Of a stretch of DNA of 32,000 nt, positions 1-12,941 are shown one piece after another. Below the pieces are notes generated by a model. The model did no database searches. It saw only the letters and a list, made by a program, of their open reading frames with translations, and had not been told where the DNA came from. The DNA comes from Candidatus Saccharimonadota bacterium. Its GTDB lineage: Archaea > Nanohalarchaeota > Nanosalinia > Nanosalinales > Nanosalinaceae. The DNA lies in the NCBI RefSeq assembly GCF_029232205.1, contig NZ_CP107255.1, forward strand, positions 270,001 to 302,000. The letters run 5' to 3'. A program made the position numbers and the translations under genes. Each line of letters starts with the position of its first letter. The first letter of the stretch is position 1.

Positions 1-2700
1 TTGATGTCTGTTATGTCTGCTTTAACTGTTACTGTGCTTCCTGGCGCTACTGGTGTTGATGGACTTGCTCTTACATTGGTTATACTTGGTGCTGTGTTGT
101 CAATCTTGAACTTCATGGTTTTTGTGTTGGTATTCCCTAGATCATCTTGGGCCTCTACTGTGATCTGGTAGTTTCCGTCTGCTTCGGTTGTTGTGTCTAG
201 GACTGCTCCGTATGAGGATCCTCCGTTTGTTCCTAGGTCGGTCCATGAAACAATAGTATCTGTTACAGTACCATCGCTATCGAGTTCCTCTATCTTGTAG
301 TCATAGGTTGTTGGATCTCCGTTTTCCAGAAGATCGTAAATTGTCTCGTTGAAGCTTGTCTGGCCCTGCACGTTTCCTGTTTTGATATTTCTGGCATCTA
401 CTGTTAGCTGGCCTGGGTTTTCTGTCAAGTCAATATTTCTGATCTGGTACAGGCCTGAGTATTTCTCGATTTCGCTTGCTGTCTCTTCAAATTCTCCTGG
501 ATCATTGATTGTTCCTGCTGAAGTGTCGCCATCCAGGTAACCTATTTGCAGGCTTCCCGGCTGTGCATCTGGGGTTGTTCCATCAAAGTTACCGTCTTTC
601 CACTGTGTCTCTGTTGTGAGGTTTTCAAGCAGGCCTCCCTGAGCTCCGTTGAGTTGTAGCGAGTCTAGTACTGGTGTGGAAGTTACCTGGTCTGTTGCGA
701 GTTTGACGGAAATTGTTGCTGTTGTACCGTCAAGGTCTGAAAGGTCTGCAGTCGTTACTCCTGATTTTCTGAGGTTTACTATAATAGTATCTCCTGTATC
801 TGTCTCTACTTTAACCCATGCCTGGTTGTAGATATTTTCTTCGTATGTTATCTCAGGAGGAGTGTTGTCAAACTGTGGTGTTACCTTTACAGTATTTCTA
901 TTTCCGGCCTTGTCCTCAGCAACCACATACACATCATGGTTTCCATCCTCAAAGTTCGTTGTATCAACATCTGCCGTCCAAGGCCCTCCACCTGTCAGCG
1001 ATCCTGACGTGTTTGTTCCATCTGCCTTTGTGATCTTGTACTCTGGGGAATTGGTATCTAGGTGGCTGTCGCTGATGCTTGCATCAATAGTGATTGTTCC
1101 TGTTACAGGGCTGCTTGGAGGCTGATTAATTGTGATACTTGGCTTTGTATCATCTGTATCTACCTGAACTGTCTGGTAGTTAATGTTGCCGAGTGTGTCA
1201 TTTGCGAATACCGCGAACTCCTGTGTCTGATTGACCTGTACATCACAGCTCCCGCTGAACTGAGAGTTGTCACAGTAGATCTCTCCTGTTGCTCCCGTCT
1301 TTGACCACACGTAGTTGTTGTTATCTTGGTCTGGGTCGTGATATCCTATCCAGTGTTGTCCACTGAACTGGCCTGTTATCAGGTCGTTTTCCTCTTGGTT
1401 CTCAATTGTTGCTAGATGATCTCCATTTGACTGGCAAGTATCTCTGGCATTTGGCCAGGTCATGTCGGAGGATGTGTTGTAGTATGTGCCATTATCTCTC
1501 TCACAGATTGCGGCCTCAGTTTCGCCTGTAGGATAATCATGCCAGACTCCTCCGCTTGATGTCAGCATCTTGACATAAGGTTGATCTCCTGCATCAGGCT
1601 GGCCGCTATCCCAGTTTTTGTAGTAGGAGGTGACTACTGTCTGGTCTAGGTGGCCTTCTCCGTCGTTGATGCTGCTTGAGATTGTTACTGTGTCGTTTGT
1701 GTTTACTACTGTGTCATTTGCTGATGTGCTTGTGACTGATGGAGGTGTTGCGTCTACTTCTACGGTTATTGTTCGGCTATCATTGAGGTTGCCGGCGTTG
1801 TCTCTGGCCCAGAATCTGTACATGTAGGATCCTGTGCTTCCTGGTGTGTTGACTGTACATTGGTTGAGGTCGGTTCCTGCATCGTTGAAAGTTGAGTTTC
1901 CACATACTGTGCTGCTATCTCTGAGCAGTTTTGTTGCGTATAGGCCACTTTCTAGATCTCTTGTTATGGCTGAGAAGTTGACTGGCTGGTTTGCTGCTGT
2001 TAGTGTTGTGTTTGCGTTTGTCTGTTCTACTATAGGGTTGTTTAGGTCGATTTTGTAGTCTCTTGTGATTTCTGCGTTGTGGCCGCTTTTTTCTGTTACT
2101 GTTACGTTGAAGGAGTTGTCTCCGCCTGCTGTTACTGTTGTTTGCCATTTATCTACTGTTGAGTTGTAGCTTAGTGGGTAGTCTGTTCCGTCTAATACTA
2201 CTTTTGCGTCTGATACTATTTCTTGTTCAGTTATTCCTGCTCCTGGATTAATTGATTCATTTGTGTTTGTTAGGGTGACGTTTACCTGGAAGTTTGCTCC
2301 GTTCTGGAAGTATCTTTCGCTTGGATATTCTACTGTTGCGATTCCTACTTTGTCTGGATCTAGGACTGTGTTTATCTGTAGTGATTTGTTTGTTAGTCCT
2401 GCATCGTCTTCTGCGAAGATTCTGTATGATCCGTCTGAGGCCAGGCTGTAAGCGTCTGAGGTGAATGTTCTCCAGTTTTCTGATGATCCTGCCTGTGTTG
2501 TAGACATTGCTTCTATACTGGTGTTTGTGGCGCCTGTCTGGTTGTATAGGGTAACCTGTGTCAGGTCTCCGTTTTCGTCTCTTACTTCTGCGCTGAACTC
2601 AACATCTGTTCCATCTGTGCTGACTATTACCTGTCTGCTTGATGTCTGGACATCTAGACTTAGTGGATCTCCCAGAGCGTTTCTAATTTCTGGGGTTACA
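1..2700 (-). other. Array of Ig-like beta-sandwich domains with recurrent A-x-D-x-A/L-G-N and D-x-T-x-P boundary signatures (contains the lectin-like insert listed next)
   Basis: Recurrent signatures: IFAEDDAGLTNKS; FWARDNAGNLNDSRTITVEVDATPPSV; VFANDTLGNINYQTVQVDTDDTKPSI; VVAEDKAGNRNTVKVTPQFDNTPPEI; VEAQDDLGNTNTKTMKFKIDNTAPSI. This is a common domain-end pattern of bacterial and archaeal surface Ig-like domains. Confidence 0.55.
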
Positions 2701-5700
2701 TTGGTCTGTCTGTAGTCAGGACATATCTCTGGTTCTTCGTAGGTGTCGTCTTCTTCGCCGTCGAAGTCACATCCCCCTGCATAATCATTTGGATAAACAG
2801 AGTGGTTTGCGTAGTATGCTTTGTTTGCCTCGTATTCTGGGTGTGAGGTGTTTCTGAAGTGATCGTAGTTTGAGGTGTTTGTTACAGGGTTGAAGTCTGG
2901 ATCTGAGGCCGCATCCACACTCGAATCTGCTGTTTCGTTCAACCAGTACTGCTCTGGTAGGTTGTCGAATCCACAGTCAGATGGTGCCACGAGCACGTTC
3001 TCTCCTTTACTTGGTTCACATTCTCCGTTTATGTCTACATCTCCATCCCCACTACCTACATCCCTGTAAACTGTAAATTCTCTTGATGTGGTGTTGAGAG
3101 GGAATGTTGCCTCGTAGTCGCCGTCCTGGCTTGTGGCCCAAATTTTGATAGTGTAATTCTTTCCGTATTCTTCATTTGAGAAGTTTATCTGGAATTGGGC
3201 CTCAGAGTCATCTCTGTATTCGTATTCTTCCTGCATCATGTCTTTGTTCTGTGAGTCTGTACAGTTGAGGCAGCTTGCGTGGTACTGGCCGTTGAAGCCG
3301 TTTGGTAGGCCTTGTGATGTGTTGAATTCTTTGAAGAATGCTGATACGTTCAGTAGGTCGTTGTCGTCGGTTCCTACTGGGTTCTGTGTTGGGCTGTCCC
3401 ATTCTGCTTCTATTCTTGCTCGGATGTCGTGTCTTTGTTTTACGATGTTTCCTCTTGGGCCTTCGTATTGTCCGTTGAGGTATCCTGGGCTCATTGACCA
3501 TTGGTCGAATGCTGCTGAGCAGTCTAGGAATCCTGTTCTGTATGAGTTTCTTGTGGAGTCGAAGTATTGTTTCTCTACTCCGATTGTTATGAAGTCGTCT
3601 CCTCCTAGGTTGTATCCGTTGCTTGATGGGTTGCCTGGTACTATCCATGTTTCAAGTTTGTTTCTTCCTCCGTGTGCTACTGCGTCGTCCCAGTTGATTA
3701 CTTCTCCTCCGTTTCTTTCTCCGCTGATTCCTCCTCCTTGGCATCCATCTTCGTCTAGGCTCCAGTAGATTCCGTCGAGTTCTGATTCTGTTAGCTGGTT
3801 GCCGTTCATGTCCTGTACTTTGGCTTTCATTGTGAAGTTGTCCATCTGGAAATCGTCTCTTCCGTCTACTGGTTCTTCTATTGTTACGTTGAGGGTTCCT
3901 CGTACTTCTATTGGGATTTCTGTAACTGGGTCTGGTTCGTAGCTGTCCTGTGGGTGGGATGCGTTGATTGTCAGGTTGTAGCTTCCTACTGGGAAGTTTC
4001 CTCTTGGATTCCATTCTGTGTGGGCCAGGTATTCGTCCCACCACTGGTTATCGTTGTCGTTCTGTGCGTTTTCGTATTCTTCTAGATCTACTTCTGCTGT
4101 TGCGATCTCTTCAGATATCTGGCTTCCGTCTGCGCTTGTTCCTGTTATCCAGAAGTGTACTGTTGAGTTTCCTACCTCATATTTTTGCTGTGATCCTTGG
4201 AATGGTGTTGTCACGTTGGCTGCGAGGTACATTGTTTCTGGGTGCTGCCATGGGCCTCCGTTACGGTATACTACGTATTTGTCAAGGTTCTGGTAGGTGT
4301 TGCCTCTTGAGTCTCTTTCCTGATTGTCTCTGTAGTATGCTGAGATGTTTAGGACGTCTGGGATTATCTGTGTCTCATTTACTTCGTTTGGTGAAACTGT
4401 TTCGAAGAAGTCGTCCATGTCGTTGTTGATTATTACTCCTGTCTCGTATGCTCCTGTGTCATATCCTGTGGTATCCCAGAGGTATGAGGCCTCTCCGCTT
4501 GAATCTGTCTGTACGTAGTGCTTGTTGCTGAGGTTTCCTATCCAGAACGTTACGTTGAATCCGGATTTATTGCTCAGTCCTGGGATGTCGATGGTTGTGT
4601 TCAGGTATTTTGTGCTGTCTGGTTCTGCGTATAGGCTTGGGGAGTAGTCTGCAATGCTTACTTTTCTTTTCGCGGTGGTATCTAGTACTCCTATGTCATC
4701 CTGGATGTACTGGTTTTGGGCTACTACGGTGATGTTTCCGTATCCGTATGCGTAGCTTGGGACAATCCATGAGCTTGATTTTGAAGAGCTTATTACTGTT
4801 AGTTCTGTGTCGTTATCCTGGTATCTCCAGGTGTAGCCGATGTCGAGGTTTCCTGCAGATCCTGTTGCTGTTGTGATGCTTGCTCGAAGCGTCTTTTCTT
4901 CGTTGTAGAATAATTCTCCTGTTGGAGGTTCTTCTATCGTTACGTTGGCCTCATCTTTCAGCACAAAGTTTTCTGAGTCATTCTCATTTAGAATTCTTGT
5001 ATCAATGTTGGTCTTGTTTTCGAGCTGGGCTGTTACTGAGTAGTCTCCTGGATTGTAGTTGCTGTCAAGTGTTACTGTGGCCGAGGCCTTTCCTTCTGAG
5101 TCTGTGTCCTTTTCTGCTACTTTGTTCCCGTTGATGTAAAATGTTACGTTGAAGTCTGTCCATGTTTCGTTGATGGTGGATTGGTAGGCCTCTTTGTTGT
5201 CTCCTGTGATTATCTGGCCTGAAAGGTTGTACTGGTAGTCTCCATCGTATGTTCTTACCTTGTCTGCTCCGCCTTCGGTCAGGTTCATCTTGATTACTCT
5301 GTCGATGACAATTGTGTTGATGTCTGAGGCCTGTGAGTAGTATGGATTTTCTACGTCAACTGTCAGGTCTGTGTCACTGGTAAAGTATTCTGGAATTGTC
5401 CATGATCCTGTTTCTCCTGAGTTAATTGTTTTTGTGGTGTCTGCGTCTTCTGCTGTCCAGATGATGTCTGATCCTGGGATGTTTCCTGCGTTTCCACAGC
5501 TGTCTGAAACATTTACGTCGAGGTTTACGTTATCTCCCTGCCTGTAACTTGTTCCACTGGTTGAACTGTTTAGTGGAGATGTAATATTGACACTGGCCTG
5601 TCCGTGAACCTCAATAGTGGAGGAGTCCTGTGTTTCATACAGATCGTACAGCTGGCTGTCAAGCGATGCGTTCACATCTACAGTGTATTCTCCAGGTGTA

Positions 5701-8700
5701 TCTTCACAGACTGTGTTCCAGTTGTAAGTTGCTTCTCCGCTGCTTCCCTCTACTGTATCTTCTGTAAGGCCTTCTATCTGGTATGTGGCATTGAAGTTGT
5801 TCTGCGAGATCTTCGATCCTGATGGATCCTGTAGCTCTGTTGTCAGATCTCCGCTGTTTGTTCTCTGGATTACTTTCCCATCTGAGATGAATTCAGGCCT
5901 TACTACATCTTTCACTAGGAAGTTGTTTGTTCCTGTTGCTGCATCATTGTAACCTGTTTTTGATACTGTTGCTGTCCATTGCTGCTGGCCTACGTTGATC
6001 AGGATGTTTGGATCGTAGTTACATGTGTATGTTCCTGTGTTTTCTGTTGTTGAGCATGTGTTTTCCGTAGGGGTTGAGTAGGAGACTGTTGCTCCGTCGA
6101 CTGTTTCTCCCAGCATGTTTGTCAGGTTTAGGCTTAGGTCTGTGGTTAGAGGGTATCCGTTGTTTCTTGTGACGGAGTTGTTTTCGTAGACACTTGCTGT
6201 TGGTAGAGAGGTTATGTTGAGTGTTCCTTTGACTTCTTTCTGGTATGTGTTGTTGAAGTCTCTGTAACCTGATTTCTCTAGTACTACTCTTACGCTGTTT
6301 GATCCTATGGAGGCCTCGTCTGGTATGTCGAAGCTTCCTGTGAATCCTTCTGAATTTGCTGTGCCTGTGTCCTTGGTATCTCCGTTCCATTTGAGTGTGT
6401 AGGATACGCTGTCTACTGCGTTCTTTCCATCTGTAATGTTAGAGATGTTGTAGTCAAGTTCTGTATCTCCGCTGGACTCATTGTATCTGTAAACTGGTGA
6501 GTCTGTGAGATTGATGTCTGCCTGAAGATTTCCGTTCACATTGAATGTGTCGTTTGATTTAATCTGGTGTACGTATCCTGATTTATTCACTGAGACATTC
6601 CAAGTGTATTCTCCGGCGTCCAGGCTGTTTGATGGGTTGAATGTACAGTTGTATACGTTAAGTGTCTGTGATTCTGTTTCGCATGTTCCTGCCGGAGTGT
6701 TGAAGTTAACGGTTGCTGAGGTGATGTTCTCTCCAAGTCTGTTTGTAACTTCTGCAACGAGTGTTATGTTATCGTCTTGCCTGTATACTGTTTCAGATTG
6801 GCTTGCTACTGATGTGTTAATGCTTCCTTTGACTTCAAGATCTTCGGTGTATGTGAAATCTGTGTAGTCTCCTTTCTGCAGTGTTATTTCCGCAGTGTGG
6901 TTGCCAAGTGTTTCGTCGTCAGGAACATCGAAGCTATCATTTGTACCATCAGAATCTACCTGGGCCTGTCTCTGCTGCTGTCCATCCCAGTCTATGGAGA
7001 ATGTTACATCGTTCAGCGAGTTGTTACCATCGTTAATGTTGTATACTGAGTATTCTACCGTGTTTTGGCCTGTATCATTGTTGTATCTTAGGAGAGGCCC
7101 GTTTACAATGTCGCTTGTTGCCTCTATAGGTGTTCTGACCTTGATGCTTCCGTTCTCATTTTCGTTGTATTCGAAGTAAGGCTTTGATACATCTATGCTC
7201 CAGTTGTAATCTCCTGCGCTAAGCGAGTCTGACGGATCAAATTCACAGGTGTATTCGTTTCCGTCTTCGTAGTTATTCTGGCAGAATCCTGAAGGTGTGT
7301 CGAATGTGACATCTGCAGTTATGTTGCTTCCTGTACTGTCTTTCAGCGTAGCTGTTAGGTTTATTGTATCATTCTGCGCATATACTACGTCACCTGATGT
7401 GAGAGCTCCATCTACTAGGCCATATACATCTACTGTTCTGGTAACTTTCTTTTCGTGGAAGTAAGGTTCGGTGAGTGTGACGTTGAGGTATCTTGGGCCT
7501 ACTTCTGCGCTTTCCTGCACGCTGTAGTCGCTGCTTACTTCGCTGGTGCTTGTTCCTGAGTTAATTCCTTCGAACTGTCCGAAGTCGACTGTGAAGTCTA
7601 CCGGTTGTTCTGTCCCGAATTGATCTTGAATGTTGCTGAAGTTGTATGTGAACGTATTCTGCGGATGATTTGTAGGCCTGTAGGCCTTATCTGGTACTGT
7701 GGTGCTTCCTACAGTTAGTTCTCCCATTAGTGTGAAATTGATGTTTTGACTGGTGTTGGCCTTGTAGTAGTCGTTTCCAGTCATTCTGATACTCCAGTTA
7801 TGGTCGCCTACAGAGTAGTTGAAACTGCTTAGTGTGTAGTTACAGTAGCCGCTGTTTGGAGTTGTGATTGCTCCGCTGTCGATCATTGATCCATCTATTC
7901 TGAACCGGCAGTAGGCCTCATTGGTATCCAGGCTTTCATTGTCTACGAGGTCTTTTACTTCTACTCCGAAGTCGGCTTCTTCCTCTGTCCTGTTGATTTT
8001 CAGATCTCTTCCCTGGCTGTAGATCAGGCCTACATTGTGTTTTTCTACTGTGAAGAATTTTTCTGAGCTGTTTGTTTCACCGTGGATTGCCTGTCCATCG
8101 TTGTAGACATCCTGGTACTCTACCTTGTATCTGATATCGCCTGTCCAGTTCTTGTAGGACTGTAGTTTGAAACTGATGTTTCCGGTTCCTGTTTTCTCTT
8201 GAGTCTTGATCCACTGGGCAGGGGTTTTGGCCCAGATTGATGCGTTGATTTGATCGTTTTCGTTATCTGAGAATGAAGTATTTATTGTGAAGTTTTCTCC
8301 CCAGTATCCCTGATCTGGTGTGTTGCTGAAGCTCTCTAGTACTGGTGCTGCGTTAGTTTTTCCTCCTACTCTGTAAATTGTTTCGTTGTGTTCTGAGTAT
8401 GTTGTTCCTACTTCTTCCTGCGTTACCTTGATGCTGTCAATTTTGCCGTTGCTGTTTTCATCTGATTTACATATCTGGAATGTTGCACCTTCCGCAGTGA
8501 TCTGCTCTTTCGAGCTGCATCCTGTGCTTGACGGAGTGATATCTGTGTATGTTCCATCCTGATCCCAGTCAACTTCGATGAATACGTTGTCTGTTATCTT
8601 GCTTTCATTGACTGCAATTGTTGTTGTGACATTTCTGAATGTTGCTGATGTTTTAGAAGTGTTTCTGAACACTGTCACGTTCTGGTATGATGGTGATCCT

Positions 8701-11700
8701 CTGCTGAAGTTTGATTTAGTCTGGACTACTGGTGTTGCGTTCATTCCTTCTTCGTACCAGATGTAGTCATCTGATCTGATTGGTGTATCTGGGTCTAGGA
8801 TGTATGCTAGGTCTCCTGGCAGAGGAAGGTATGGCGCGCTTATAGAGTACTTTCTACCGTTGAATACTACTTCCTGTGATCCTTCTGTTGAGAGAGTATC
8901 TGGAAGGTAAAGGCTTTCTACTCTTACTGGTACTGCAGGATTGCTGCTGTATGCTACCTGCAGTGCATTGAACATGATGTCTTGGCCTGTTGAAATGCCT
9001 GTTCTCTGGGCCCACTTTGTCACGTCTTCCTGCAGTGTGTACGTATCTGAGAAGTTGTATTCGTATTCTACTCTTGGTTCTGAGACTTCTACTCTTCCGC
9101 CGCTGTCGGATCCAAAGACAATGTCTATTGTACATGTCAAGTTGCTACACTGGCCGAGTTCATCGTTGAATTCGTCTGTGAAGTTGCTGCCTGTAAGGGT
9201 TGTTTCTCCGAAGAAGAGGCCTGTTTCTGAGTATTCGTTGTCTCCGTCGTTTCCTATGTTTACTGTCAGGTTTTCTGGTACTGAGAATAGGTTGATTATG
9301 TCGTTTTCTGAGGTTGTGACTCCTACTTCTTTTCCTGCTACTCTTCCGATCTCTCCTTTACTGAGTTCCTGGATTTGCGAGCTGTATTCGTATGTGTTGA
9401 TTGGTGTGCCATCAGGCTCCATAAGGAGTACTGTTCCATTCCTGAAACCTGCCAGAATGCTGCTTTCTGAGGCCTTCGTAATGTTTCCTGATTCAAGGCT
9501 TTCTACTTTGGAGCTGTAGCTTTTCTCCCAGATCTGTGTGCCGTCTGAGTCGATTGCAATTATTCTCTGGTCTTCTGTTCCTCCGATGATTTCTTTTCCT
9601 GTGCTTCCTCCGCTTACCTGTGTTGTTGTCAGTGATCTGAACCATGTGTCGCCTGTCGGAGGATATCTTTCGATCTGTGTTCCGGAAGAGTCAAGGATTG
9701 CAATCTTGTTCCTTGTTCCTACTACAATTTCGTTTCCTGTTGTCCCGCTTGATGTATCTCCGATTTCAACATCGGTTATCTCGCTGCCTGCAGTGTAATT
9801 CCAGATCTCGGATCCTGTACTGTTTAGTGCTCTTACTGTTCCACCGAACTTGGAAACAACTATTTCATCTCCTCTGTTGGATCCGAAGACGTCTGTTCTT
9901 AGCAGTAGGCCTTCGGAAAGTTTTTGACCCTGTGTGTATGTCGCCGTGCTTGAGCTTGAGTCAAGTAGCAGGTTGTAGCTGTCTGAGCAGCTTTCACAGT
10001 AATATGTAATGTTCTCGTTTTCGTTCAGGTCCTGACCGTCTACCTCTGTCCTTACCCATGTGTATTCGAGGCTGGTATTGGTCCATGTTCTTGCGGCAGA
10101 TCCTGTTCTTCTTTCGTAAGTGTAGTTCTCTGTCTTTACTTCTGAGGTCAGCCCTGAGTTCGTTGAGGTGCCGATGAAGGCGTTTGCCCCTGAGTCTGTG
10201 CTAAGTTCTACAGTGGAATCTGAGTTTAGATCTGATCCACTAACTTCTGTCTTTACCATCGAATAATTGACAGGTATCTGAGTGATTTTCCTCATGAGGC
10301 CTGTTTGATTATCTTCGATCAGATTGTAGCCTGTCGTACATGAGTCACATGTTACTGATAGCGGATTCTGGCCTAGTTCATCTGATGGTAGTTCTGTACC
10401 AGCCCAGTTGTATTCTGTAGATGTATTAGTCCAGACCTGCACCATGTAGTCTCCTGATGTTAGATTGCCTTGGTAGTATGAGTGGCCTGTCGTGCTGGAG
10501 TCCTTTATGAGGTTGAATGAACTGTCTGTAGCACAGGATTCACAGTTGTACGTAACGTTTCTTCCCTGGGCAATATCTGATTTGTTGACTTCTGTCTCTA
10601 CCCAGTCAAAGTCCAGCGATGAATCTGTGCTTACGTTGATCATGTAGTCAAATGGAAGTGGTTCGAGGGCATCGTCTGTAAGTATTTCGGAGTTACCTGA
10701 GGTGGAGTTGTCTCCAAACATTTCGTAGTAGCTACTGCTGTTACAGTTAGAACATTCGTAGAATATTACGTCGTTGTTCAGTGAAGACGTGTCAATTTGA
10801 GTGGAAACCCACTCTCCGCCAGTAGTATTTCCAGTAGTGTTACAGGAAGGTATCTTGCTAGTGTTAATCTGCTTGTTTACGTTTGTACCTGGACCTCCTA
10901 GCTGCAGGTCATAGGAAGCATTTCCTACCGAACACATTTTTGCTGAAACTGTTGCTTCCTGGGCCTGTAGACTTTCGACGTCGAGAGCGGTAAGATCAAA
11001 GTAAGGATCAGGATTTCCGCCTCCATTACATCCAATACATGTTGAGTTGTCGGCCTCTCCGTCATTGATAGATCTTACTACTGTGCTTGTCTCCTGGATC
11101 TCATCTGTGCTGATATTGTATCTATTTCCATTTATGACGAAGTATGGCTGAGATCCTTTCGATCCTTCATAGTTCAATGCTGTTCTGAGGTATACTTTCT
11201 CGGCCTCTATATCGGAAGGGATATTGTAGAATAGGTTGAATGTCGCCTGATTCTGTATGTCTGTCAGGTTTTCACCTGCTCCATCTTCTGCACTGTAGAT
11301 TTCCTTGGCTGTTTCGGTTACTTGCCCTGAGTCAATAGGGTAGGTTGTGCCATTCAACTCGAACTCTAGATCAGAAATCTCTCCACCGATACTGTTGAGT
11401 GCAACTGAGACATACGTGCTGGCATTATCCTGAATAGTAGTATTAACTGGAATCTGATTGTCAGAGACAGGCACTACAGATTCTCCATCTGAACTTGACC
11501 TGTTTACATTTTCACTAGTGGTACTGCTAACTTCTGAAAGATTTACATTGTAGGTGTTTCCATTCAGTTCTATCTGTGCAAGGCCTTCGGCTCCAGGTTC
11601 CTTTGCAAGAGGCAGTTCCAAGTAGTACTTCTCGGCTGAGAAACCTGGTTGCTCGACTTCCATAGTGAGATTTCTTCCATCGAATCGGGCCATACCATCT

Positions 11701-12941
11701 ACGTTTACGTCGTTCAGTCTTCTTTCGGCCATCTCTGTTACTTCGCTGGTGTCGACCGTGTAGTTCTGGCCTCCAACCTCTACTTTCAGCGAGCCCTGAT
11801 CGCTGTACTTGTTGACAGCGGTTTTCAGGTAGACTGTTCCATTTTCCTGTGAAATATTGAATGGATACTCTACGTTTACTGGGCCTCCGCATCCTGTACA
11901 GATCAAGTCTTCTGCTGAGCCATCGTCGTTGGTGTAGAAAATGTTCTGTGATGAGAGTTCTCCGCTGTCTACGTTGAAGTAGCTGCTTGTATCCGATGTG
12001 CTCCATATGAGATTTCCGTTTGTATCCAGAACCTTGACTCCTGCATTTGTTGTTAGAATTATTTCTTCCTTGTTTGTCACGACGTCAATGTTGCCTGATG
12101 AGATTCCGTTCACATCGTTGCTGGAAGTGTAGTTCCAGAGGCTGTTTCCTGAAGAGTCATAGGCCTTGACCTGCGTGCCATCAAGAACCACCATTTCATC
12201 TCTTGAATCTCCCTGGATGTCGGCGAACTCCATTCCTGTTCCTGTCAGTGTGAGAAGAGGCCTGCTCTCAAGGGTTGATAGTTTGATGCTGAAATTCTGT
12301 ACGCTACTGTCGCCAGGAATATCAAAGCTTCGTGTAGTATCTTGATCGAGATTCAGTACTTCTCCTTCGTATCCTGGATCGTAGTTTGTCGAATCTCCTG
12401 AAGGATTACAGGCCCAGAAGTTTGATGAGAAGGAACAAAGTGTCTGAGTTACCAGGCCTTCGTTCAAGGTTATTCTTGTTGAGTCCTGTTCGGCCTTACC
12501 TCTTCCACTGACGGTTCTGGTTACTCCTCCTATACTAATATTGGCCTTGTAGTCTCCGAACTGGTTGACGTCAAATACTATTCTTCCGAAAGAGTTACTC
12601 TGGCCATTCCAGTCTGCAGTAATATCGTTTCCTGCTACTGTGCCCGATGAATCTGTCTCAACCCAGGATCCATCCTGTCGGTATTCAATCCTGTTCAAGC
12701 TGAGGCTATCTTGCCCATCGATAACATCTATATCTAGCTGGCTATTGGTGGTTGAATTAAACTTTATAGTCCAGTTGCCGGCTTCTGAGCCGTCAGAAAT
12801 TCTAAATTGGGAAACTGCATCAGCTATATTTGCATCTGTTTGACCTGCGATGCTTCCAGCCAGTATTAGAGCAAAAGCTATACCTACTACCAGCTTGCCT
12901 AAATCGTCGCTGAGGCTGCCTCTCAGTCTAGAAGTGATCAC
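1..12941 (-). CDS. Giant secreted/cell-surface adhesin-like protein; at least 4313 codons in the window, 3' end cut by the window edge
   Basis: The minus-strand frame with codon first positions at coordinates congruent to 2 mod 3 is open from an in-frame TAA (12975-12977) down to coordinate 1. The only plausible start is GTG at 12939-12941; the first in-frame ATG is at 12233 and would delete the signal-like segment. Hand translation starts (M)ITSRLRGSLSDDLGKLVVGIAFALILAGSIAGQTDANIADAV and is still open at the edge with ...KIDNTAPSITNVRASPSTPVAPGSTVTVKADITDI. Independent check: all seven minus-strand track ORFs in 1-12950 start at coordinates congruent to 0 or 1 mod 3. None lies in this frame although it contains many ATGs, as expected if the frame has no stop in the window. 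Confidence 0.85.
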   Translation of the reverse strand, partial: MITSRLRGSLSDDLGKLVVGIAFALILAGSIAGQTDANIADAVSQFRISDGSEAGNWTIKFNSTTNSQLDIDVIDGQDSLSLNRIEYRQDGSWVETDSSGTVAGNDITADWNGQSNSFGRIVFDVNQFGDYKANISIGGVTRTVSGRGKAEQDSTRITLNEGLVTQTLCSFSSNFWACNPSGDSTNYDPGYEGEVLNLDQDTTRSFDIPGDSSVQNFSIKLSTLESRPLLTLTGTGMEFADIQGDSRDEMVVLDGTQVKAYDSSGNSLWNYTSSNDVNGISSGNIDVVTNKEEIILTTNAGVKVLDTNGNLIWSTSDTSSYFNVDSGELSSQNIFYTNDDGSAEDLICTGCGGPVNVEYPFNISQENGTVYLKTAVNKYSDQGSLKVEVGGQNYTVDTSEVTEMAERRLNDVNVDGMARFDGRNLTMEVEQPGFSAEKYYLELPLAKEPGAEGLAQIELNGNTYNVNLSEVSSTTSENVNRSSSDGESVVPVSDNQIPVNTTIQDNASTYVSVALNSIGGEISDLEFELNGTTYPIDSGQVTETAKEIYSAEDGAGENLTDIQNQATFNLFYNIPSDIEAEKVYLRTALNYEGSKGSQPYFVINGNRYNISTDEIQETSTVVRSINDGEADNSTCIGCNGGGNPDPYFDLTALDVESLQAQEATVSAKMCSVGNASYDLQLGGPGTNVNKQINTSKIPSCNTTGNTTGGEWVSTQIDTSSLNNDVIFYECSNCNSSSYYEMFGDNSTSGNSEILTDDALEPLPFDYMINVSTDSSLDFDWVETEVNKSDIAQGRNVTYNCESCATDSSFNLIKDSSTTGHSYYQGNLTSGDYMVQVWTNTSTEYNWAGTELPSDELGQNPLSVTCDSCTTGYNLIEDNQTGLMRKITQIPVNYSMVKTEVSGSDLNSDSTVELSTDSGANAFIGTSTNSGLTSEVKTENYTYERRTGSAARTWTNTSLEYTWVRTEVDGQDLNENENITYYCESCSDSYNLLLDSSSSTATYTQGQKLSEGLLLRTDVFGSNRGDEIVVSKFGGTVRALNSTGSEIWNYTAGSEITDVEIGDTSSGTTGNEIVVGTRNKIAILDSSGTQIERYPPTGDTWFRSLTTTQVSGGSTGKEIIGGTEDQRIIAIDSDGTQIWEKSYSSKVESLESGNITKASESSILAGFRNGTVLLMEPDGTPINTYEYSSQIQELSKGEIGRVAGKEVGVTTSENDIINLFSVPENLTVNIGNDGDNEYSETGLFFGETTLTGSNFTDEFNDELGQCSNLTCTIDIVFGSDSGGRVEVSEPRVEYEYNFSDTYTLQEDVTKWAQRTGISTGQDIMFNALQVAYSSNPAVPVRVESLYLPDTLSTEGSQEVVFNGRKYSISAPYLPLPGDLAYILDPDTPIRSDDYIWYEEGMNATPVVQTKSNFSRGSPSYQNVTVFRNTSKTSATFRNVTTTIAVNESKITDNVFIEVDWDQDGTYTDITPSSTGCSSKEQITAEGATFQICKSDENSNGKIDSIKVTQEEVGTTYSEHNETIYRVGGKTNAAPVLESFSNTPDQGYWGENFTINTSFSDNENDQINASIWAKTPAQWIKTQEKTGTGNISFKLQSYKNWTGDIRYKVEYQDVYNDGQAIHGETNSSEKFFTVEKHNVGLIYSQGRDLKINRTEEEADFGVEVKDLVDNESLDTNEAYCRFRIDGSMIDSGAITTPNSGYCNYTLSSFNYSVGDHNWSIRMTGNDYYKANTSQNINFTLMGELTVGSTTVPDKAYRPTNHPQNTFTYNFSNIQDQFGTEQPVDFTVDFGQFEGINSGTSTSEVSSDYSVQESAEVGPRYLNVTLTEPYFHEKKVTRTVDVYGLVDGALTSGDVVYAQNDTINLTATLKDSTGSNITADVTFDTPSGFCQNNYEDGNEYTCEFDPSDSLSAGDYNWSIDVSKPYFEYNENENGSIKVRTPIEATSDIVNGPLLRYNNDTGQNTVEYSVYNINDGNNSLNDVTFSIDWDGQQQRQAQVDSDGTNDSFDVPDDETLGNHTAEITLQKGDYTDFTYTEDLEVKGSINTSVASQSETVYRQDDNITLVAEVTNRLGENITSATVNFNTPAGTCETESQTLNVYNCTFNPSNSLDAGEYTWNVSVNKSGYVHQIKSNDTFNVNGNLQADINLTDSPVYRYNESSGDTELDYNISNITDGKNAVDSVSYTLKWNGDTKDTGTANSEGFTGSFDIPDEASIGSNSVRVVLEKSGYRDFNNTYQKEVKGTLNITSLPTASVYENNSVTRNNGYPLTTDLSLNLTNMLGETVDGATVSYSTPTENTCSTTENTGTYTCNYDPNILINVGQQQWTATVSKTGYNDAATGTNNFLVKDVVRPEFISDGKVIQRTNSGDLTTELQDPSGSKISQNNFNATYQIEGLTEDTVEGSSGEATYNWNTVCEDTPGEYTVDVNASLDSQLYDLYETQDSSTIEVHGQASVNITSPLNSSTSGTSYRQGDNVNLDVNVSDSCGNAGNIPGSDIIWTAEDADTTKTINSGETGSWTIPEYFTSDTDLTVDVENPYYSQASDINTIVIDRVIKMNLTEGGADKVRTYDGDYQYNLSGQIITGDNKEAYQSTINETWTDFNVTFYINGNKVAEKDTDSEGKASATVTLDSNYNPGDYSVTAQLENKTNIDTRILNENDSENFVLKDEANVTIEEPPTGELFYNEEKTLRASITTATGSAGNLDIGYTWRYQDNDTELTVISSSKSSSWIVPSYAYGYGNITVVAQNQYIQDDIGVLDTTAKRKVSIADYSPSLYAEPDSTKYLNTTIDIPGLSNKSGFNVTFWIGNLSNKHYVQTDSSGEASYLWDTTGYDTGAYETGVIINNDMDDFFETVSPNEVNETQIIPDVLNISAYYRDNQERDSRGNTYQNLDKYVVYRNGGPWQHPETMYLAANVTTPFQGSQQKYEVGNSTVHFWITGTSADGSQISEEIATAEVDLEEYENAQNDNDNQWWDEYLAHTEWNPRGNFPVGSYNLTINASHPQDSYEPDPVTEIPIEVRGTLNVTIEEPVDGRDDFQMDNFTMKAKVQDMNGNQLTESELDGIYWSLDEDGCQGGGISGERNGGEVINWDDAVAHGGRNKLETWIVPGNPSSNGYNLGGDDFITIGVEKQYFDSTRNSYRTGFLDCSAAFDQWSMSPGYLNGQYEGPRGNIVKQRHDIRARIEAEWDSPTQNPVGTDDNDLLNVSAFFKEFNTSQGLPNGFNGQYHASCLNCTDSQNKDMMQEEYEYRDDSEAQFQINFSNEEYGKNYTIKIWATSQDGDYEATFPLNTTSREFTVYRDVGSGDGDVDINGECEPSKGENVLVAPSDCGFDNLPEQYWLNETADSSVDAASDPDFNPVTNTSNYDHFRNTSHPEYEANKAYYANHSVYPNDYAGGCDFDGEEDDTYEEPEICPDYRQTNVTPEIRNALGDPLSLDVQTSSRQVIVSTDGTDVEFSAEVRDENGDLTQVTLYNQTGATNTSIEAMSTTQAGSSENWRTFTSDAYSLASDGSYRIFAEDDAGLTNKSLQINTVLDPDKVGIATVEYPSERYFQNGANFQVNVTLTNTNESINPGAGITEQEIVSDAKVVLDGTDYPLSYNSTVDKWQTTVTAGGDNSFNVTVTEKSGHNAEITRDYKIDLNNPIVEQTNANTTLTAANQPVNFSAITRDLESGLYATKLLRDSSTVCGNSTFNDAGTDLNQCTVNTPGSTGSYMYRFWARDNAGNLNDSRTITVEVDATPPSVTSTSANDTVVNTNDTVTISSSINDGEGHLDQTVVTSYYKNWDSGQPDAGDQPYVKMLTSSGGVWHDYPTGETEAAICERDNGTYYNTSSDMTWPNARDTCQSNGDHLATIENQEENDLITGQFSGQHWIGYHDPDQDNNNYVWSKTGATGEIYCDNSQFSGSCDVQVNQTQEFAVFANDTLGNINYQTVQVDTDDTKPSITINQPPSSPVTGTITIDASISDSHLDTNSPEYKITKADGTNTSGSLTGGGPWTADVDTTNFEDGNHDVYVVAEDKAGNRNTVKVTPQFDNTPPEITYEENIYNQAWVKVETDTGDTIIVNLRKSGVTTADLSDLDGTTATISVKLATDQVTSTPVLDSLQLNGAQGGLLENLTTETQWKDGNFDGTTPDAQPGSLQIGYLDGDTSAGTINDPGEFEETASEIEKYSGLYQIRNIDLTENPGQLTVDARNIKTGNVQGQTSFNETIYDLLENGDPTTYDYKIEELDSDGTVTDTIVSWTDLGTNGGSSYGAVLDTTTEADGNYQITVEAQDDLGNTNTKTMKFKIDNTAPSITNVRASPSTPVAPGSTVTVKADITDI
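1242..1625 (-). other. C-type lectin-like segment with a QPD...WHD motif; its two halves are in swapped order
   Basis: YYKNWDSGQPDAGDQPYVKMLTSSGGVWHDYPTGETEAAICE resembles the C-terminal CTLD half (W-x-x-G-E/Q-P-N/D ... W-N-D ... C-E). It is followed by TYYNTSSDMTWPNARDTCQSNGDHLATIENQEENDLITGQFSGQHWIGYHDPDQDNNNYVWSKTG, which resembles the N-terminal CTLD half (W-x-x-A-x-x-x-C ... L-A-x-I-x-x-x-E-E-N ... W-I-G ... W-x-W). QPD is at 1593-1601, WHD at 1536-1544 and WIGYHD at 1335-1352. Confidence 0.55.
5895..7735 (-). repeat. Three copies of an alternating two-domain (A-B) Ig-like super-repeat, about 205 aa per unit
   Basis: B-type domains share ..VY-x-Q-x-D-x-I-x-L-x-A-x-(L/V) ... T-C/F-C ... 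Y-x-C-x-F/Y-(D/N)-P-S ... (A/V)-G-(D/E)-Y-x-W: TFDTPSGFCQNNYEDGNEYTCEFDPSDSLSAGDYNWSIDVSK; NFNTPAGTCETESQTLNVYNCTFNPSNSLDAGEYTWNVSVNK; SYSTPTENTCSTTENTGTYTCNYDPNILINVGQQQWTATVSK. A-type domains share Y-R-Y-N ... Y-x-(V/I)-x-N-I-x-D-G-x-N ... F-D-(V/I)-P-D-(D/E) ... E-V-K-G. Confidence 0.6.
9285..9905 (-). other. Beta-propeller-like region 2 of the giant protein (about 4-5 blades)
   Basis: DVFGSNRGDEIVVSKFGGTVRALNSTGSEIWNY / VEIGDTSSGTTGNEIVVGTRNKIAILDSSGTQIERY / TQVSGGSTGKEIIGGTEDQRIIAIDSDGTQIWEK / GNITKASESSILAGFRNGTVLLMEPDGTPINTY / GEIGRVAGKEVGVTTSENDIINLF. The period is about 45 aa, as in FG-GAP or PQQ/BamB-type blades. Confidence 0.5.
9905..10825 (-). repeat. Five tandem modules of about 50-70 aa; four carry a CxxC motif
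   Basis: W-V-x-T-E-V-x-x-x-D leads into ..N-x-T-Y-x-C-E/D-S-C-x-x-x-Y/F-N-L-I/L. Instances: WVSTQIDTSSLNNDVIFYECSNCNSSSYYEMF; WVETEVNKSDIAQGRNVTYNCESCATDSSFNLI; WAGTELPSDELGQNPLSVTCDSCTTGYNLIED; MVKTEVSGSDLNSDSTVELSTDSG (degenerate, no Cys); WVRTEVDGQDLNENENITYYCESCSDSYNLLLD. CxxC codons lie at 10743-10754, 10533-10544, 10338-10349 and 9986-9997. Two further CxxC lie upstream: CTGC at 11889-11900 and CIGC at 11028-11039. Confidence 0.6.
11040..11846 (-). repeat. Four tandem modules of about 70 aa each (protein-level repeat) in the giant protein
   Basis: R1 TVYLKTAVNKYSDQGSLKVEVGGQNYTVDTSEVTEMAERR; R2 KYYLELPLAKEPGAEGLAQIELNGNTYNVNLSEVSSTTSE; R3 TYVSVALNSIGGEISDLEFELNGTTYPIDSGQVTETAKEI; R4 KVYLRTALNYEGSKGSQPYFVINGNRYNISTDEIQETSTV. 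Consensus is Y-L-x-x-A-L-N ... E-L-N-G-x-x-Y-x-V/I ... E-V/I-x-E-T, with a period of about 200-210 nt. Confidence 0.6.
11985..12235 (-). other. Beta-propeller blade-like repeats (FG-GAP/PQQ-like), region 1 of the giant protein
   Basis: FADIQGDSRDEMVVLDGTQVKAYDSSGNSLWNYTSSNDVNGISSGNIDVVTNKEEIILTTNAGVKVLDTNGNLIWSTS. It shows alternating D-x-x-G-D/N ... E-I-I/V-V and V-x-A/L-D-x-x-G-x-x-I/L-W patterns, typical of propeller blades. Confidence 0.45.
12842..12941 (-). other. N-terminal signal peptide or signal-anchor of the giant protein
   Basis: A charged n-region (ITSRLRGSLSDD) is followed by a hydrophobic stretch (LGKLVVGIAFALILAGSIAG) and then polar QTDANIA. This is the classic Sec signal layout. 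Cleavage versus anchoring cannot be decided by eye. Confidence 0.6.

What the first reader, a model, noticed from the sequence alone, without database searches (positions are those of the whole stretch)
1242..1625. C-type-lectin-like domain that appears circularly permuted, carries a QPD motif and is nested inside an Ig-like domain
Read in gene order, the segment first gives YYKNWDSGQPDAGDQPYVKMLTSSGGVWHDYPTGETEAAICE. That lines up with the C-terminal half of canonical CTLDs (Y-x-N-W-x-x-G-E/Q-P-N/D ... C-V ... W-N-D ... C ... (V/I)-C-E). After a 4-residue link (RDNG) comes TYYNTSSDMTWPNARDTCQSNGDHLATIENQEENDLI...HWIGYHD...YVWSKTG, which lines up with the N-terminal half (W-x-x-A-x-x-x-C ... 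L-A-x-I ... E-E-N ... W-I-G ... W-x-W-x-x-G). Native termini joined by a short linker, with new termini opened in a loop, is the signature of a circular permutation. The Cys pair of the alpha1-beta5 disulfide (ARDTC and AICE) is retained. The long-loop Cys pair is lost, and a new pair (YCDNSQFSGSC) appears at the end. QPD at the EPN/QPD position is associated with galactose-type specificity in animal C-type lectins; WHD replaces WND. The whole segment interrupts an Ig-like domain: VDATPPSV...ISSSINDGEGHLDQTVVTS comes before it and VQVNQTQEFAVFANDTLGNINYQTVQVDTDDTKP after it. CTLDs are uncommon in archaea, and I know of no permuted, nested one.
Basis: partly seen in the sequence, partly recalled or inferred. 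Interest (0 to 1): 0.75.

Follow-up and report, generated by a model that had tools for sequence, protein, structure and literature searches.

The report
Circularly permuted C-type lectin domain
A giant surface protein of a salt-loving nano-archaeon carries one C-type lectin domain whose two halves are in swapped order and which sits inside an Ig-like repeat; I found no earlier report of this wiring for this sugar-binding fold.

Summary
Window 1245-1625 (minus strand) lies in an ORF of at least 4313 aa. It encodes first the C-terminal half of a C-type lectin-like domain (CTLD), then RDNG, then the N-terminal half.

- Pfam Lectin_C scores 46.9 bits in two stretches in native order. After re-permutation it matches profile positions 2-106 of 107 in one stretch, at 50-56 bits.
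- 416 of 669 artificially permuted canonical CTLDs align to the native segment in one stretch.
- No other CTLD half exists in the protein or in the six-frame window, so this is not a slice of a tandem array.
- AlphaFold2 with an alignment gives block-mean pLDDT 89-98 over the unit, with the canonical helices and strands in permuted order. I could not inspect coordinates, and Foldseek (a sequential aligner) found no CTLD.
- The flanks match, in register, the start and the end of neighbouring Ig-like repeats, which supports nesting.
- The organism is a nanohaloarchaeon. Two relatives start with a signal peptide followed directly by C-N-C-N.
- QPD is present, but the Ca2+ site is degenerate (Glu to Gln, WND to WHD), so galactose binding is unproven.

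Verdict: a new topological variant of a known fold, probably a host-glycan adhesion module. Interest is moderate.

The parts
3..12941 (-). Giant ORF of at least 4313 aa that runs off the window start. It has an N-terminal hydrophobic signal/anchor and many Ig-like repeats, and is probably a surface adhesin.
   Evidence: Searches give the ORF. One search gives the N-terminus VITSRLRGSLSDDLGKLVVGIAFALILAGSIAG. One search gives 15% D+E and 144 N-x-S/T sequons against 78 expected. Searches give weak Big_13/PKD hits.
1626..1742 (-). N-terminal part of the host Ig-like repeat (PSVTSTS...LDQTVVTS, aa 3745-3783).
   Evidence: It aligns from position 0 with the start of the neighbouring repeat Ra. 16 of 2000 shuffles reach the observed score.
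1500..1625 (-). CTLD C-terminal half (long-loop region, beta3-beta5): YYKNWDSGQPD...VWHD...AAICE, aa 3784-3825.
   Evidence: Half-domain HMM 45.6 bits. It matches mannose-binding protein residues 98-138. AlphaFold2 block-mean pLDDT is above 90.
1593..1601 (-). QPD tripeptide at the EPN/QPD position.
   Evidence: The relatives have EPN at this column.
1536..1544 (-). WHD at the WND position.
   Evidence: WHD occurs in 12 of 669 canonical CTLDs sampled.
1488..1499 (-). Four-residue junction RDNG that joins the native C-terminus (beta5) to the native N-terminus (beta1).
   Evidence: An NG or DG turn is conserved at all five junctions of the family. AlphaFold2 places a loop between strands 85-90 and 96-98.
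1275..1487 (-). CTLD N-terminal half (beta1, alpha1, alpha2, WIGY strand, YVW strand), aa 3830-3900.
   Evidence: Half-domain HMM 84.2 bits. Pfam profile positions 2-61. PDB hits to N-terminal halves. AlphaFold2 predicts helices at 105-114 and 125-134.
1245..1274 (-). CDNSQFSGSC, an extra Cys pair on the return connection to the host repeat. Its role is unknown.
   Evidence: The relatives have no counterpart. AlphaFold2 pLDDT is below 50 here.
1140..1244 (-). C-terminal part of the host Ig-like repeat (DVQVNQTQEFAVFANDTLGNINYQTVQVDTDDTKP, aa 3911-3945).
   Evidence: It aligns to the last 27 residues of repeat Rlast, ending at its final residue. 0 of 2000 shuffles reach the observed score. It shares the A-x-D-x-x-G-N motif with neighbouring repeats.
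855..1139 (-). The next Ig-like repeat, which is uninterrupted. It served as the reference for the host domain.
   Evidence: Big_13 E = 2e-5 and Big_7 E = 4e-4, both below the Pfam cutoffs.

Best explanation
The segment is a naturally circularly permuted C-type lectin-like domain. The long-loop/beta3-beta5 half comes first. A four-residue turn (RDNG) joins the former C-terminal strand beta5 to the former N-terminal strand beta1. The chain ends after the beta2 hairpin, so the new termini lie where the long-loop region normally leaves the core. Because these termini are adjacent, the 117-residue unit plus a 10-residue Cys loop can sit as an excursion in the middle (C'-E region) of one Ig-like repeat. 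That repeat belongs to a surface protein of more than 4300 aa in a nanohaloarchaeon close to strain M3_22. The unit most likely arose from a bacterial-type tandem CTLD array (QPD, with Tyr in place of the inner Cys) by keeping C-half(i) plus N-half(i+1). Its likely job is adhesion: binding a glycan or glycoprotein on the haloarchaeal host surface. Shown here: the swapped order, the absence of other halves, the homology of the flanks, the relatives, and a confident AlphaFold2 model of the unit. Inferred: that the two halves form one compact CTLD, that the host repeat still folds, and any ligand.
For: Order and completeness of the domain:
- Pfam Lectin_C scores 46.9 bits natively in two stretches. 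The re-permuted sequence scores 50-56 bits in one stretch covering profile 2-106 of 107.
- The native segment hits only half-domains in the PDB. The re-permuted sequence aligns over residues 2-112 with single CTLD chains.
- 416 of 669 artificially permuted canonical CTLDs align to the native segment in one stretch.
- There is only one C-half and one N-half in the 4324 aa and in all six frames of the window.

Structure prediction:
- AlphaFold2 with 59 sequences gives block-mean pLDDT 89-98 for model residues 51-150. The secondary-structure elements are beta3, beta4, beta5, turn, beta1, alpha1, alpha2, beta2, beta2'.
- pTM is 0.65 although only about 110 of 213 residues are confident. That fits one rigid body better than two (my estimate).
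- The conserved Cys pair C3824/C3847 falls in columns that are at least 90% conserved.

Relatives and organism:
- P0058, and P0031 once its ORF is corrected, both start with a signal peptide followed at once by C-N-C-N, and they keep an NG/DG junction.
- Their N-to-C spacing is 5 and 8 residues, against a canonical mode of 11.
- aIF5B is 95% identical to Candidatus Nanohaloarchaea archaeon strain M3_22.

Host repeat:
- The flanks match the ends of the neighbouring Ig-like repeats in register.
Against: - Foldseek of the model against the PDB and against BFVD returned no CTLD at all; the best E-value was 0.58. The aligner is sequential and 3Di states depend on sequence separation, so this may be a consequence of the permutation. 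It still leaves the fold unconfirmed.
- The alignment given to AlphaFold2 consisted mostly of C(i)-N(i+1) junctions from canonical tandem arrays. High pLDDT could therefore reflect recognition of each half rather than of their packing. Coordinates and PAE were not available.
- The host flanks are modelled at pLDDT 37-65, and the spliced host gives no Pfam hit.
- Only two relatives were found, and no orthologue, so there is no test of purifying selection.
- The Ca2+/sugar site lacks the canonical Glu and Asn, so ligand binding by the classical mechanism is doubtful.
Confidence: 0.72

Rival explanations
1. The segment is a decayed relic of a tandem CTLD array. The C-half of one domain and the N-half of the next were left behind by deletions. 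They do not form a domain and act only as a spacer or disordered insert.
For: The top 150 database hits are tandem CTLD proteins in which the query simply aligns across a C(i)-N(i+1) junction, some with linkers of only 1-6 residues. Foldseek found no CTLD for the model. The Ca2+ ligands are degenerate.
Against: Both halves keep strong profile scores and all core motifs. AlphaFold2 gives block-mean pLDDT 89-98 across both halves and pTM 0.65. The same C-then-N order starts the mature chain in two independent relatives, right after the signal peptide. The ORF is intact over more than 4300 codons.
Confidence: 0.12
2. The two halves do not pair within one chain. Instead they complement halves from a second copy of the protein or from a partner, by domain swapping. 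The unit would then be an oligomerisation device rather than a self-contained lectin domain.
For: The C-N-C-N relatives can be read equally well as a central canonical N1-C2 domain flanked by unpaired halves. No coordinates were available to show intramolecular pairing.
Against: The four-residue NG turn between beta5 and beta1 suits an intramolecular hairpin, because the two strands are antiparallel neighbours in CTLDs (established knowledge of the fold). No partner half exists in the window. The N1-to-C2 spacing in the relatives is shorter than in about 92% of canonical domains.
Confidence: 0.08
3. It is a C-type-lectin-fold variable protein of a diversity-generating retroelement (DGR), as described for DPANN archaea.
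For: DGR targets with a CLec fold are reported in Ca. Nanohalobium and other DPANN archaea (PMC7443923, read).
Against: The match is to classical Lectin_C (PF00059), not to the FGE/Mtd subclass. The coding DNA has no second copy or template repeat in the window. No reverse transcriptase was seen among the ORFs scanned.
Confidence: 0.01
4. The swapped order is an artefact of assembly or of frame reading.
For: None found.
Against: A single uninterrupted frame runs through both flanks and the unit. Two independent public contigs show the same order.
Confidence: 0.01

Closest known systems
Canonical C-type lectin-like domain (Pfam PF00059 Lectin_C; e.g. mannose-binding protein, ASGPR, selectins, langerin)
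   Same: It shares the sequence motifs of both halves: W-x-x-A-x-x-x-C in alpha1, HLATI, EEN, WIGY, YVW, Y-x-N-W, the QPD position, the W-x-D position and the I-C-E end. The alpha1-beta5 Cys pair is kept. The Pfam score is above the gathering cutoff. The re-permuted sequence aligns over whole solved CTLDs.
   Different: The halves are in swapped order, with new termini at the boundary between beta2 and the long loop. The inner (beta3-loop) disulfide is lost. The Ca2+ site 2 ligands Glu and Asn are replaced by Gln and His. The domain is embedded within another domain rather than placed in series.
Bacterial tandem CTLD proteins (e.g. Microcystis 'lectin-like protein', cluster of P0079; also P0134, P0029, P0032)
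   Same: These are the closest canonical sequence type: QPD with Tyr in place of the inner Cys (QPDNAGNEDYV), an NG-x-Y motif before beta1, GGxLVTI, and short inter-domain linkers. They are the plausible source of the unit.
   Different: They run N-C-N-C from a normal N-terminus. Every C-half is preceded by its own N-half.
Nanohaloarchaeal proteins P0031 (NCBI MFB6114660.1, Ca. Nanohalobium sp. MAG) and P0058 (ENA contig ERZ1034573 NODE-9714)
   Same: They have 38-40% identity to the unit and the same C-then-N order, with an NG/DG junction. The chain starts with the C-half immediately after a signal peptide and continues into an Ig-like region.
   Different: They carry two units in tandem (C-N-C-N) at the N-terminus and are not nested. 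They keep EPN, the Glu, WND and the inner Cys pair, so their Ca2+/sugar sites look intact.
Intimin/invasin-type adhesins (Ig-like array capped by a C-type-lectin-like domain)
   Same: The functional architecture is similar: a stalk of bacterial Ig-like domains presents a CTLD for binding to a partner cell surface (my knowledge, not tested here).
   Different: There the CTLD is terminal, has canonical topology and belongs to a divergent Ca2+-independent subclass. No sequence relationship was found here.
Classical natural circular permutations (concanavalin A versus favin; swaposins; tandem duplication followed by truncation)
   Same: The same evolutionary logic applies: duplicate, then trim both ends. 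The C-N-C-N relatives look like the intermediate stage (inference).
   Different: These involve different folds. I found no report of a permuted CTLD in the literature searched.

Membership tests
CTLD / Pfam Lectin_C (PF00059) | Profile match above the curated gathering score | tested here: met
   46.9 bits natively and 50-56 bits re-permuted, against a cutoff of 22.6. In the context of the whole protein the score is 30.5 bits.
CTLD / Pfam Lectin_C (PF00059) | Canonical order of elements beta1-alpha1-alpha2-beta2-long loop-beta3-beta4-beta5 along the chain | tested here: not met
   The C-half is at aa 3784-3825 and precedes the N-half at aa 3830-3900. The AlphaFold2 secondary-structure order is beta3, beta4, beta5, beta1, alpha1, alpha2, beta2.
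CTLD / Pfam Lectin_C (PF00059) | Conserved alpha1-beta5 disulfide cysteines | tested here: met
   C3847 (ARDTC) and C3824 (AICE) fall in columns that are at least 90% conserved. Bond formation itself was not tested.
CTLD / Pfam Lectin_C (PF00059) | Inner disulfide (start of beta3 to the loop after beta4) | tested here: not met
   Tyr and Thr stand at the two Cys columns, whereas the relatives keep Cys. Many bacterial CTLDs also lack this pair.
CTLD / Pfam Lectin_C (PF00059) | Complete Ca2+ site 2 / sugar site: E/Q-P-N/D, a Glu two residues before beta3, and W-N-D | tested here: not met
   QPD is present. The Glu position is Gln (DQPY) and the Asn of WND is His. WHD is found in 12 of 669 sampled CTLDs.
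CTLD / Pfam Lectin_C (PF00059) | Compact double-loop fold | tested here: inconclusive
Circular permutant of a known domain | Both halves are homologous to complementary halves of one domain, in swapped order, and the re-permuted sequence aligns full length | tested here: met
Circular permutant of a known domain | It is not simply a window on a tandem array: no extra N-half upstream and no extra C-half downstream | tested here: met
   Unfiltered HMM searches (hmmsearch --max) of the 4324 aa and of all six frames find one copy of each half only. The part of the protein beyond the window start could not be read.
Nested (inserted) domain in an Ig-like repeat | The sequences before and after the insert are homologous to the N- and C-terminal parts of one repeat type, in register | tested here: met
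   MAFFT alignment with four neighbouring repeats. Shuffle tests: N-flank 16 of 2000, C-flank 0 of 2000.
Nested (inserted) domain in an Ig-like repeat | The flanks assemble into one beta-sandwich | tested here: inconclusive
   The flanks have pLDDT 37-65 in the model. The spliced host gives no Pfam hit. About 22-25 residues of the repeat (C'-E region) are missing.
DGR variable protein (CLec fold) | A variable repeat with a matching template repeat and a nearby reverse transcriptase | tested here: not met
   No second DNA copy in the window. No reverse transcriptase among the scanned ORFs.

The most novel reading that the evidence does not exclude
The permuted CTLD is a self-contained, insertable glycan-binding cassette that arose in Nanohaloarchaeota from bacterial tandem CTLDs by duplication and truncation, with the C-N-C-N proteins as surviving intermediates. 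Because the new termini lie only 8 residues from the QPD site, the Ig-like scaffold may form part of an extended binding surface that the ectosymbiont uses to recognise its haloarchaeal host. This would be the first natural circular permutation in the CTLD superfamily.
Probability: 0.3. Interest if true: 0.65.

Novelty: new variant of a known kind. Interest (0 to 1): 0.55.

Why it matters
The CTLD is one of the most studied recognition folds, and I know of no natural circular permutant of it; my literature searches found none. A confirmed case would show that the double-loop fold tolerates re-wiring at the boundary between beta2 and the long loop. It would provide a rare family in which the presumed duplication intermediate (C-N-C-N) and the minimal product (C-N) coexist. 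It would also give protein engineers a CTLD whose termini are adjacent on a different face, ready for loop insertion. Biologically it points to a candidate host-recognition element in the giant, strain-specific surface proteins of nanohaloarchaea, whose attachment mechanism is still unknown (PMC7443923).

Tried and rejected
Searches for relatives:
- The word-indexed homology search with the 250-aa region found nothing. With a five-row alignment it returned only short canonical CTLDs.
- The genome-contig scan failed with alignment A1, which had no conserved stretch. With A2 it found no relative.
- The metagenome scan returned only the P0058 contig. The viral contig scan returned nothing.
- An exact look-up of the window's Nre protein in public assemblies found no record.

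Structure:
- Single-sequence AlphaFold2 was useless (pLDDT 41).
I therefore used native C(i)-N(i+1) junction segments (A4).

Host repeat:
- A self-jackhmmer model of the Ig-like repeat absorbed the CTLD and was discarded.
- Adding whole Ig repeats to the alignment misaligned them into the CTLD columns, so the host part had no alignment depth.

Hypotheses rejected:
- DGR target: no template repeat.
- Slice of a tandem array: no further halves.
- Galactose specificity inferred from QPD alone: the site is incomplete.
Full report
**What is in the sequence**

The finding lies on the minus strand, inside one very long ORF. The ORF is open from window 12974, its first start codon is GTG at 12941, and it runs down to position 3, where it leaves the window. 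That gives at least 4313 codons.

- YYKNWDSGQPDAGDQPYVKMLTSSGGVWHDYPTGETEAAICE
- RDNG
- TYYNTSSDMTWPNARDTCQSNGDHLATIENQEENDLITGQFSGQHWIGYHDPDQDNNNYVWSKTGATGEIY
- CDNSQFSGSC

**Is the order really permuted?**

- In native order, Pfam Lectin_C (PF00059) scores 46.9 bits (E = 5e-12, cutoff 22.6). The match is split into two stretches, and the best one maps residues 54-110 to profile positions 2-61.
- When the two halves are swapped back, the same profile matches in a single stretch covering positions 2-106 of 107. The score is 50.0 bits, or 56.0 bits if the Cys-loop tail is removed.
- Against PDB sequences, native residues 43-114 hit only the N-terminal halves of CTLDs (DEC-205, PLA2 receptor, CL-P1, langerin, CD23). 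Residues 2-42 hit mannose-binding protein residues 98-138.
- The re-permuted sequence aligns over residues 2-112 with whole single-domain structures (2afp, 1lit, 2ox8, E-selectin, langerin, MBP).
- As a reciprocal control, I cut 669 canonical CTLDs from database proteins and permuted them artificially. Of these, 416 aligned to the native window segment in one stretch spanning both halves.

**Is it just a slice of a tandem array?**

This was the main alternative. An exhaustive HMMER search of 1.84 billion representatives gave 2549 hits. Nearly all of the top 150 are tandem CTLD proteins, in which the query simply aligns across a C(i)-N(i+1) junction. Some of these junctions have linkers of only 1-6 residues.

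I therefore built separate HMMs for the two halves and searched with all filters off. The 4324-aa translation contains exactly one C-half (aa 3784-3825, 45.6 bits) and one N-half (aa 3830-3900, 84.2 bits), and nothing else even at E = 100. The same holds for all six reading frames of the window. The unit is therefore isolated. The sequences on either side are not CTLD. The part of the protein beyond the window start could not be examined.

**Structure**

- Single-sequence AlphaFold2 failed (mean pLDDT 41).
- I then used 58 native rows: four units from the two nanohaloarchaeal relatives, plus C(i)-N(i+1) junction segments from tandem proteins (alignment A4).
- The model has block-mean pLDDT 89-98 for residues 51-150 of the 213 submitted, which is the whole CTLD unit. 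91 residues have pLDDT of at least 90, and pTM is 0.65.
- The predicted secondary-structure elements are strands YVKML, VWHDY and EAAICE, then a loop at RDNG, strand YYN, helix WPNARDTCQS, helix QEENDLITGQ, strand QHWIGYHDPD and strand NYVW. These are the canonical beta3, beta4, beta5, beta1, alpha1, alpha2, beta2 and beta2' in permuted order.
- Only about 110 residues are confident. A pTM of 0.65 fits one rigid body of that size better than two independent pieces of 42 and 70 residues. This is my own arithmetic, not a tool result.

**Nesting in an Ig-like repeat**

The repeats on either side give weak Ig-like hits, all below the Pfam cutoffs (Big_13 E = 2e-5, Big_7, PKD). The spliced flanks alone give no Pfam hit.

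Aligned with four neighbouring repeats, the 39 residues before the unit cover the first three strands. The 35 residues after it cover the last strands, including the shared A-x-D-x-x-G-N motif and the D-x-T-x-P boundary. The gap falls in the C'-E region, which is where the CTLD sits.

In local alignments the N-flank matches a repeat from its first residue; 16 of 2000 shuffles reach the observed score. The C-flank matches up to a repeat's last residue; 0 of 2000 shuffles reach the score. AlphaFold2 models the flanks poorly (pLDDT 37-65). So homology of the flanks is shown, but a folded split sandwich is not.

**Organism and relatives**

The other genes in the window are archaeal: Nre, aIF5B, aIF2-alpha, PAC2 and a fused PriS-PriL primase. 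The aIF5B protein is 95% identical to Candidatus Nanohaloarchaea archaeon strain M3_22 (CP046106.1). It is 64-88% identical to other nanohaloarchaeal genomes and at most 43% identical to other DPANN and archaeal genomes.

Two database proteins share the swapped order with 38-40% identity:

- P0031 (NCBI MFB6114660.1, Ca. Nanohalobium sp. MAG);
- P0058 (a hypersaline metagenome contig, L001).

P0058 is a complete ORF: signal peptide, then C-N-C-N, then the start of an Ig-like region. P0031 is annotated from an internal Met. The ORF actually starts 102 nt upstream, at L002 position 6958, with MYNLRRLLIIVTCLCFLSGSAAA followed at once by YTNWNSGEPND. In both proteins the mature chain therefore begins with the C-half.

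All five C-to-N junctions in the family carry an NG or DG turn one to three residues after the (C)E/R end of beta5. The N-to-C spacing in the relatives is 5 and 8 residues, measured Trp to Trp. It is 11 in 66% of canonical domains and at least 10 in about 91%. This favours reading them as two permuted units rather than a canonical domain with orphan halves, but it does not prove it.

Further scans of genomes, metagenomes and viral contigs found no more members. The motif scan also found nothing in strain M3_22, although that genome is in the collection. Its orthologue may therefore lack the unit.

**Likely origin and function**

The closest canonical sequences are bacterial tandem CTLDs, for example from Microcystis. 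They share QPD, Tyr in place of the inner Cys (QPDNAGNEDYV against QPDAGDQPYV) and an NG-x-Y motif before beta1.

The simplest history is acquisition of such an array, followed by loss of the first N-half and the last C-half. The window unit would then be the minimal C-N product.

The carrier protein has these features:

- an N-terminal hydrophobic signal or anchor;
- 15% acidic residues;
- 144 N-glycosylation sequons against 78 expected;
- long runs of Ig-like repeats.

This matches the organism-specific lectin-like attachment proteins described for nanohaloarchaea (PMC7443923). I therefore infer a role in adhesion to the haloarchaeal host.

The classical Ca2+/sugar site is incomplete. QPD is present, but the Glu two residues before beta3 is Gln, the Asn of WND is His, and the inner disulfide is gone. 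The two relatives keep EPN, Glu, WND and both Cys. WHD occurs in about 2% of sampled CTLDs. Galactose-type specificity is therefore not supported. Ligand binding may be Ca2+-independent, may use another surface, or may be lost.

**Rivals**

- A non-folding relic of a tandem array (confidence 0.12).
- Complementation of the halves in trans by domain swapping (confidence 0.08).
- A DGR variable protein (confidence 0.01): there is no template repeat and it is the wrong CLec subclass.
- An assembly or frame artefact (confidence 0.01).

**Comparison with what is known, and novelty**

By sequence the unit belongs to the CTLD superfamily. It fails the canonical topology feature by construction. It also fails the tests for the inner disulfide and the full Ca2+ site. 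Full-text searches for circular permutation together with C-type lectin or CTLD found no report of a permuted CTLD. I know of none either.

I rate it a new topological variant of a known fold, seen in three proteins of one archaeal phylum. It is interesting to people who study fold evolution and lectins, and it is a concrete lead for nanohaloarchaeal host recognition. It is not a new kind of system, and it still lacks structural proof.

Noticed in passing
window 9990-11900 (-), aa 359-996 of the giant ORF: There are six repeated modules with a C-x-x-C motif, e.g. YNCESCATDSSFNLIKDSS, VTCDSCTTGYNLIEDNQ and YYCESCSDSYNLLLDSS. Several are preceded by a W-x-x-TE motif. No Pfam family matched, and their nature is unknown.
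   Followed up: no
window 3-12941 (-): The giant ORF has 144 N-x-S/T sequons against 78 expected from composition. It has 15% D+E against 5.6% K+R, an N-terminal hydrophobic signal or anchor, and propeller-like repeats such as GDEIVVSKFGGTVRALNSTGSEIWNY around aa 240-330 and 1030-1230.
   Followed up: partly
window 5950-7450 (-), aa ~1840-2340: There are three long internal repeats of a module of about 230 aa (...TADVTFDTPSGFCQNNYEDGNEYTCEFDPSDSLSAGDYNWSIDVSKPYF... and two paralogues), each with a conserved Cys pair.
   Followed up: no
L002 6958-7937 (GCA_042216515.1, JBDGTW010000004.1): NCBI protein MFB6114660.1 is annotated from an internal Met at L002 7060. The ORF really starts at the ATG at 6958, which encodes a signal peptide followed directly by the CTLD C-half. 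The gene is cut by the contig end.
   Followed up: yes
L001 2367-2369: The stop codon of P0058 interrupts what is a continuous reading frame in P0031 (...TLEVR*RDPDVVDGTLR against ...TLSALFRDPEVLDGTLNFY). This may be a sequencing error, a pseudogene or a real truncation.
   Followed up: no
window 29318-30724 (-): A single 468-aa ORF hits both the small and the large primase subunits (PriS-PriL fusion). To my knowledge this is a DPANN-type feature.
   Followed up: no
window 13064-16813 (+): The 1249-aa ORF next to the giant gene, on the opposite strand, has weak hits to GH127 beta-L-arabinofuranosidase and to the C5-epimerase C-terminus. It may be a glycan-active enzyme paired with the adhesin.
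   Followed up: no
L007 (CP046106.1, strain M3_22) and the scan: The window's aIF5B is 95% identical to strain M3_22. Yet the CTLD motif patterns found no relative anywhere in the genome collection that contains M3_22. The nested CTLD may therefore be strain-specific.
   Followed up: partly
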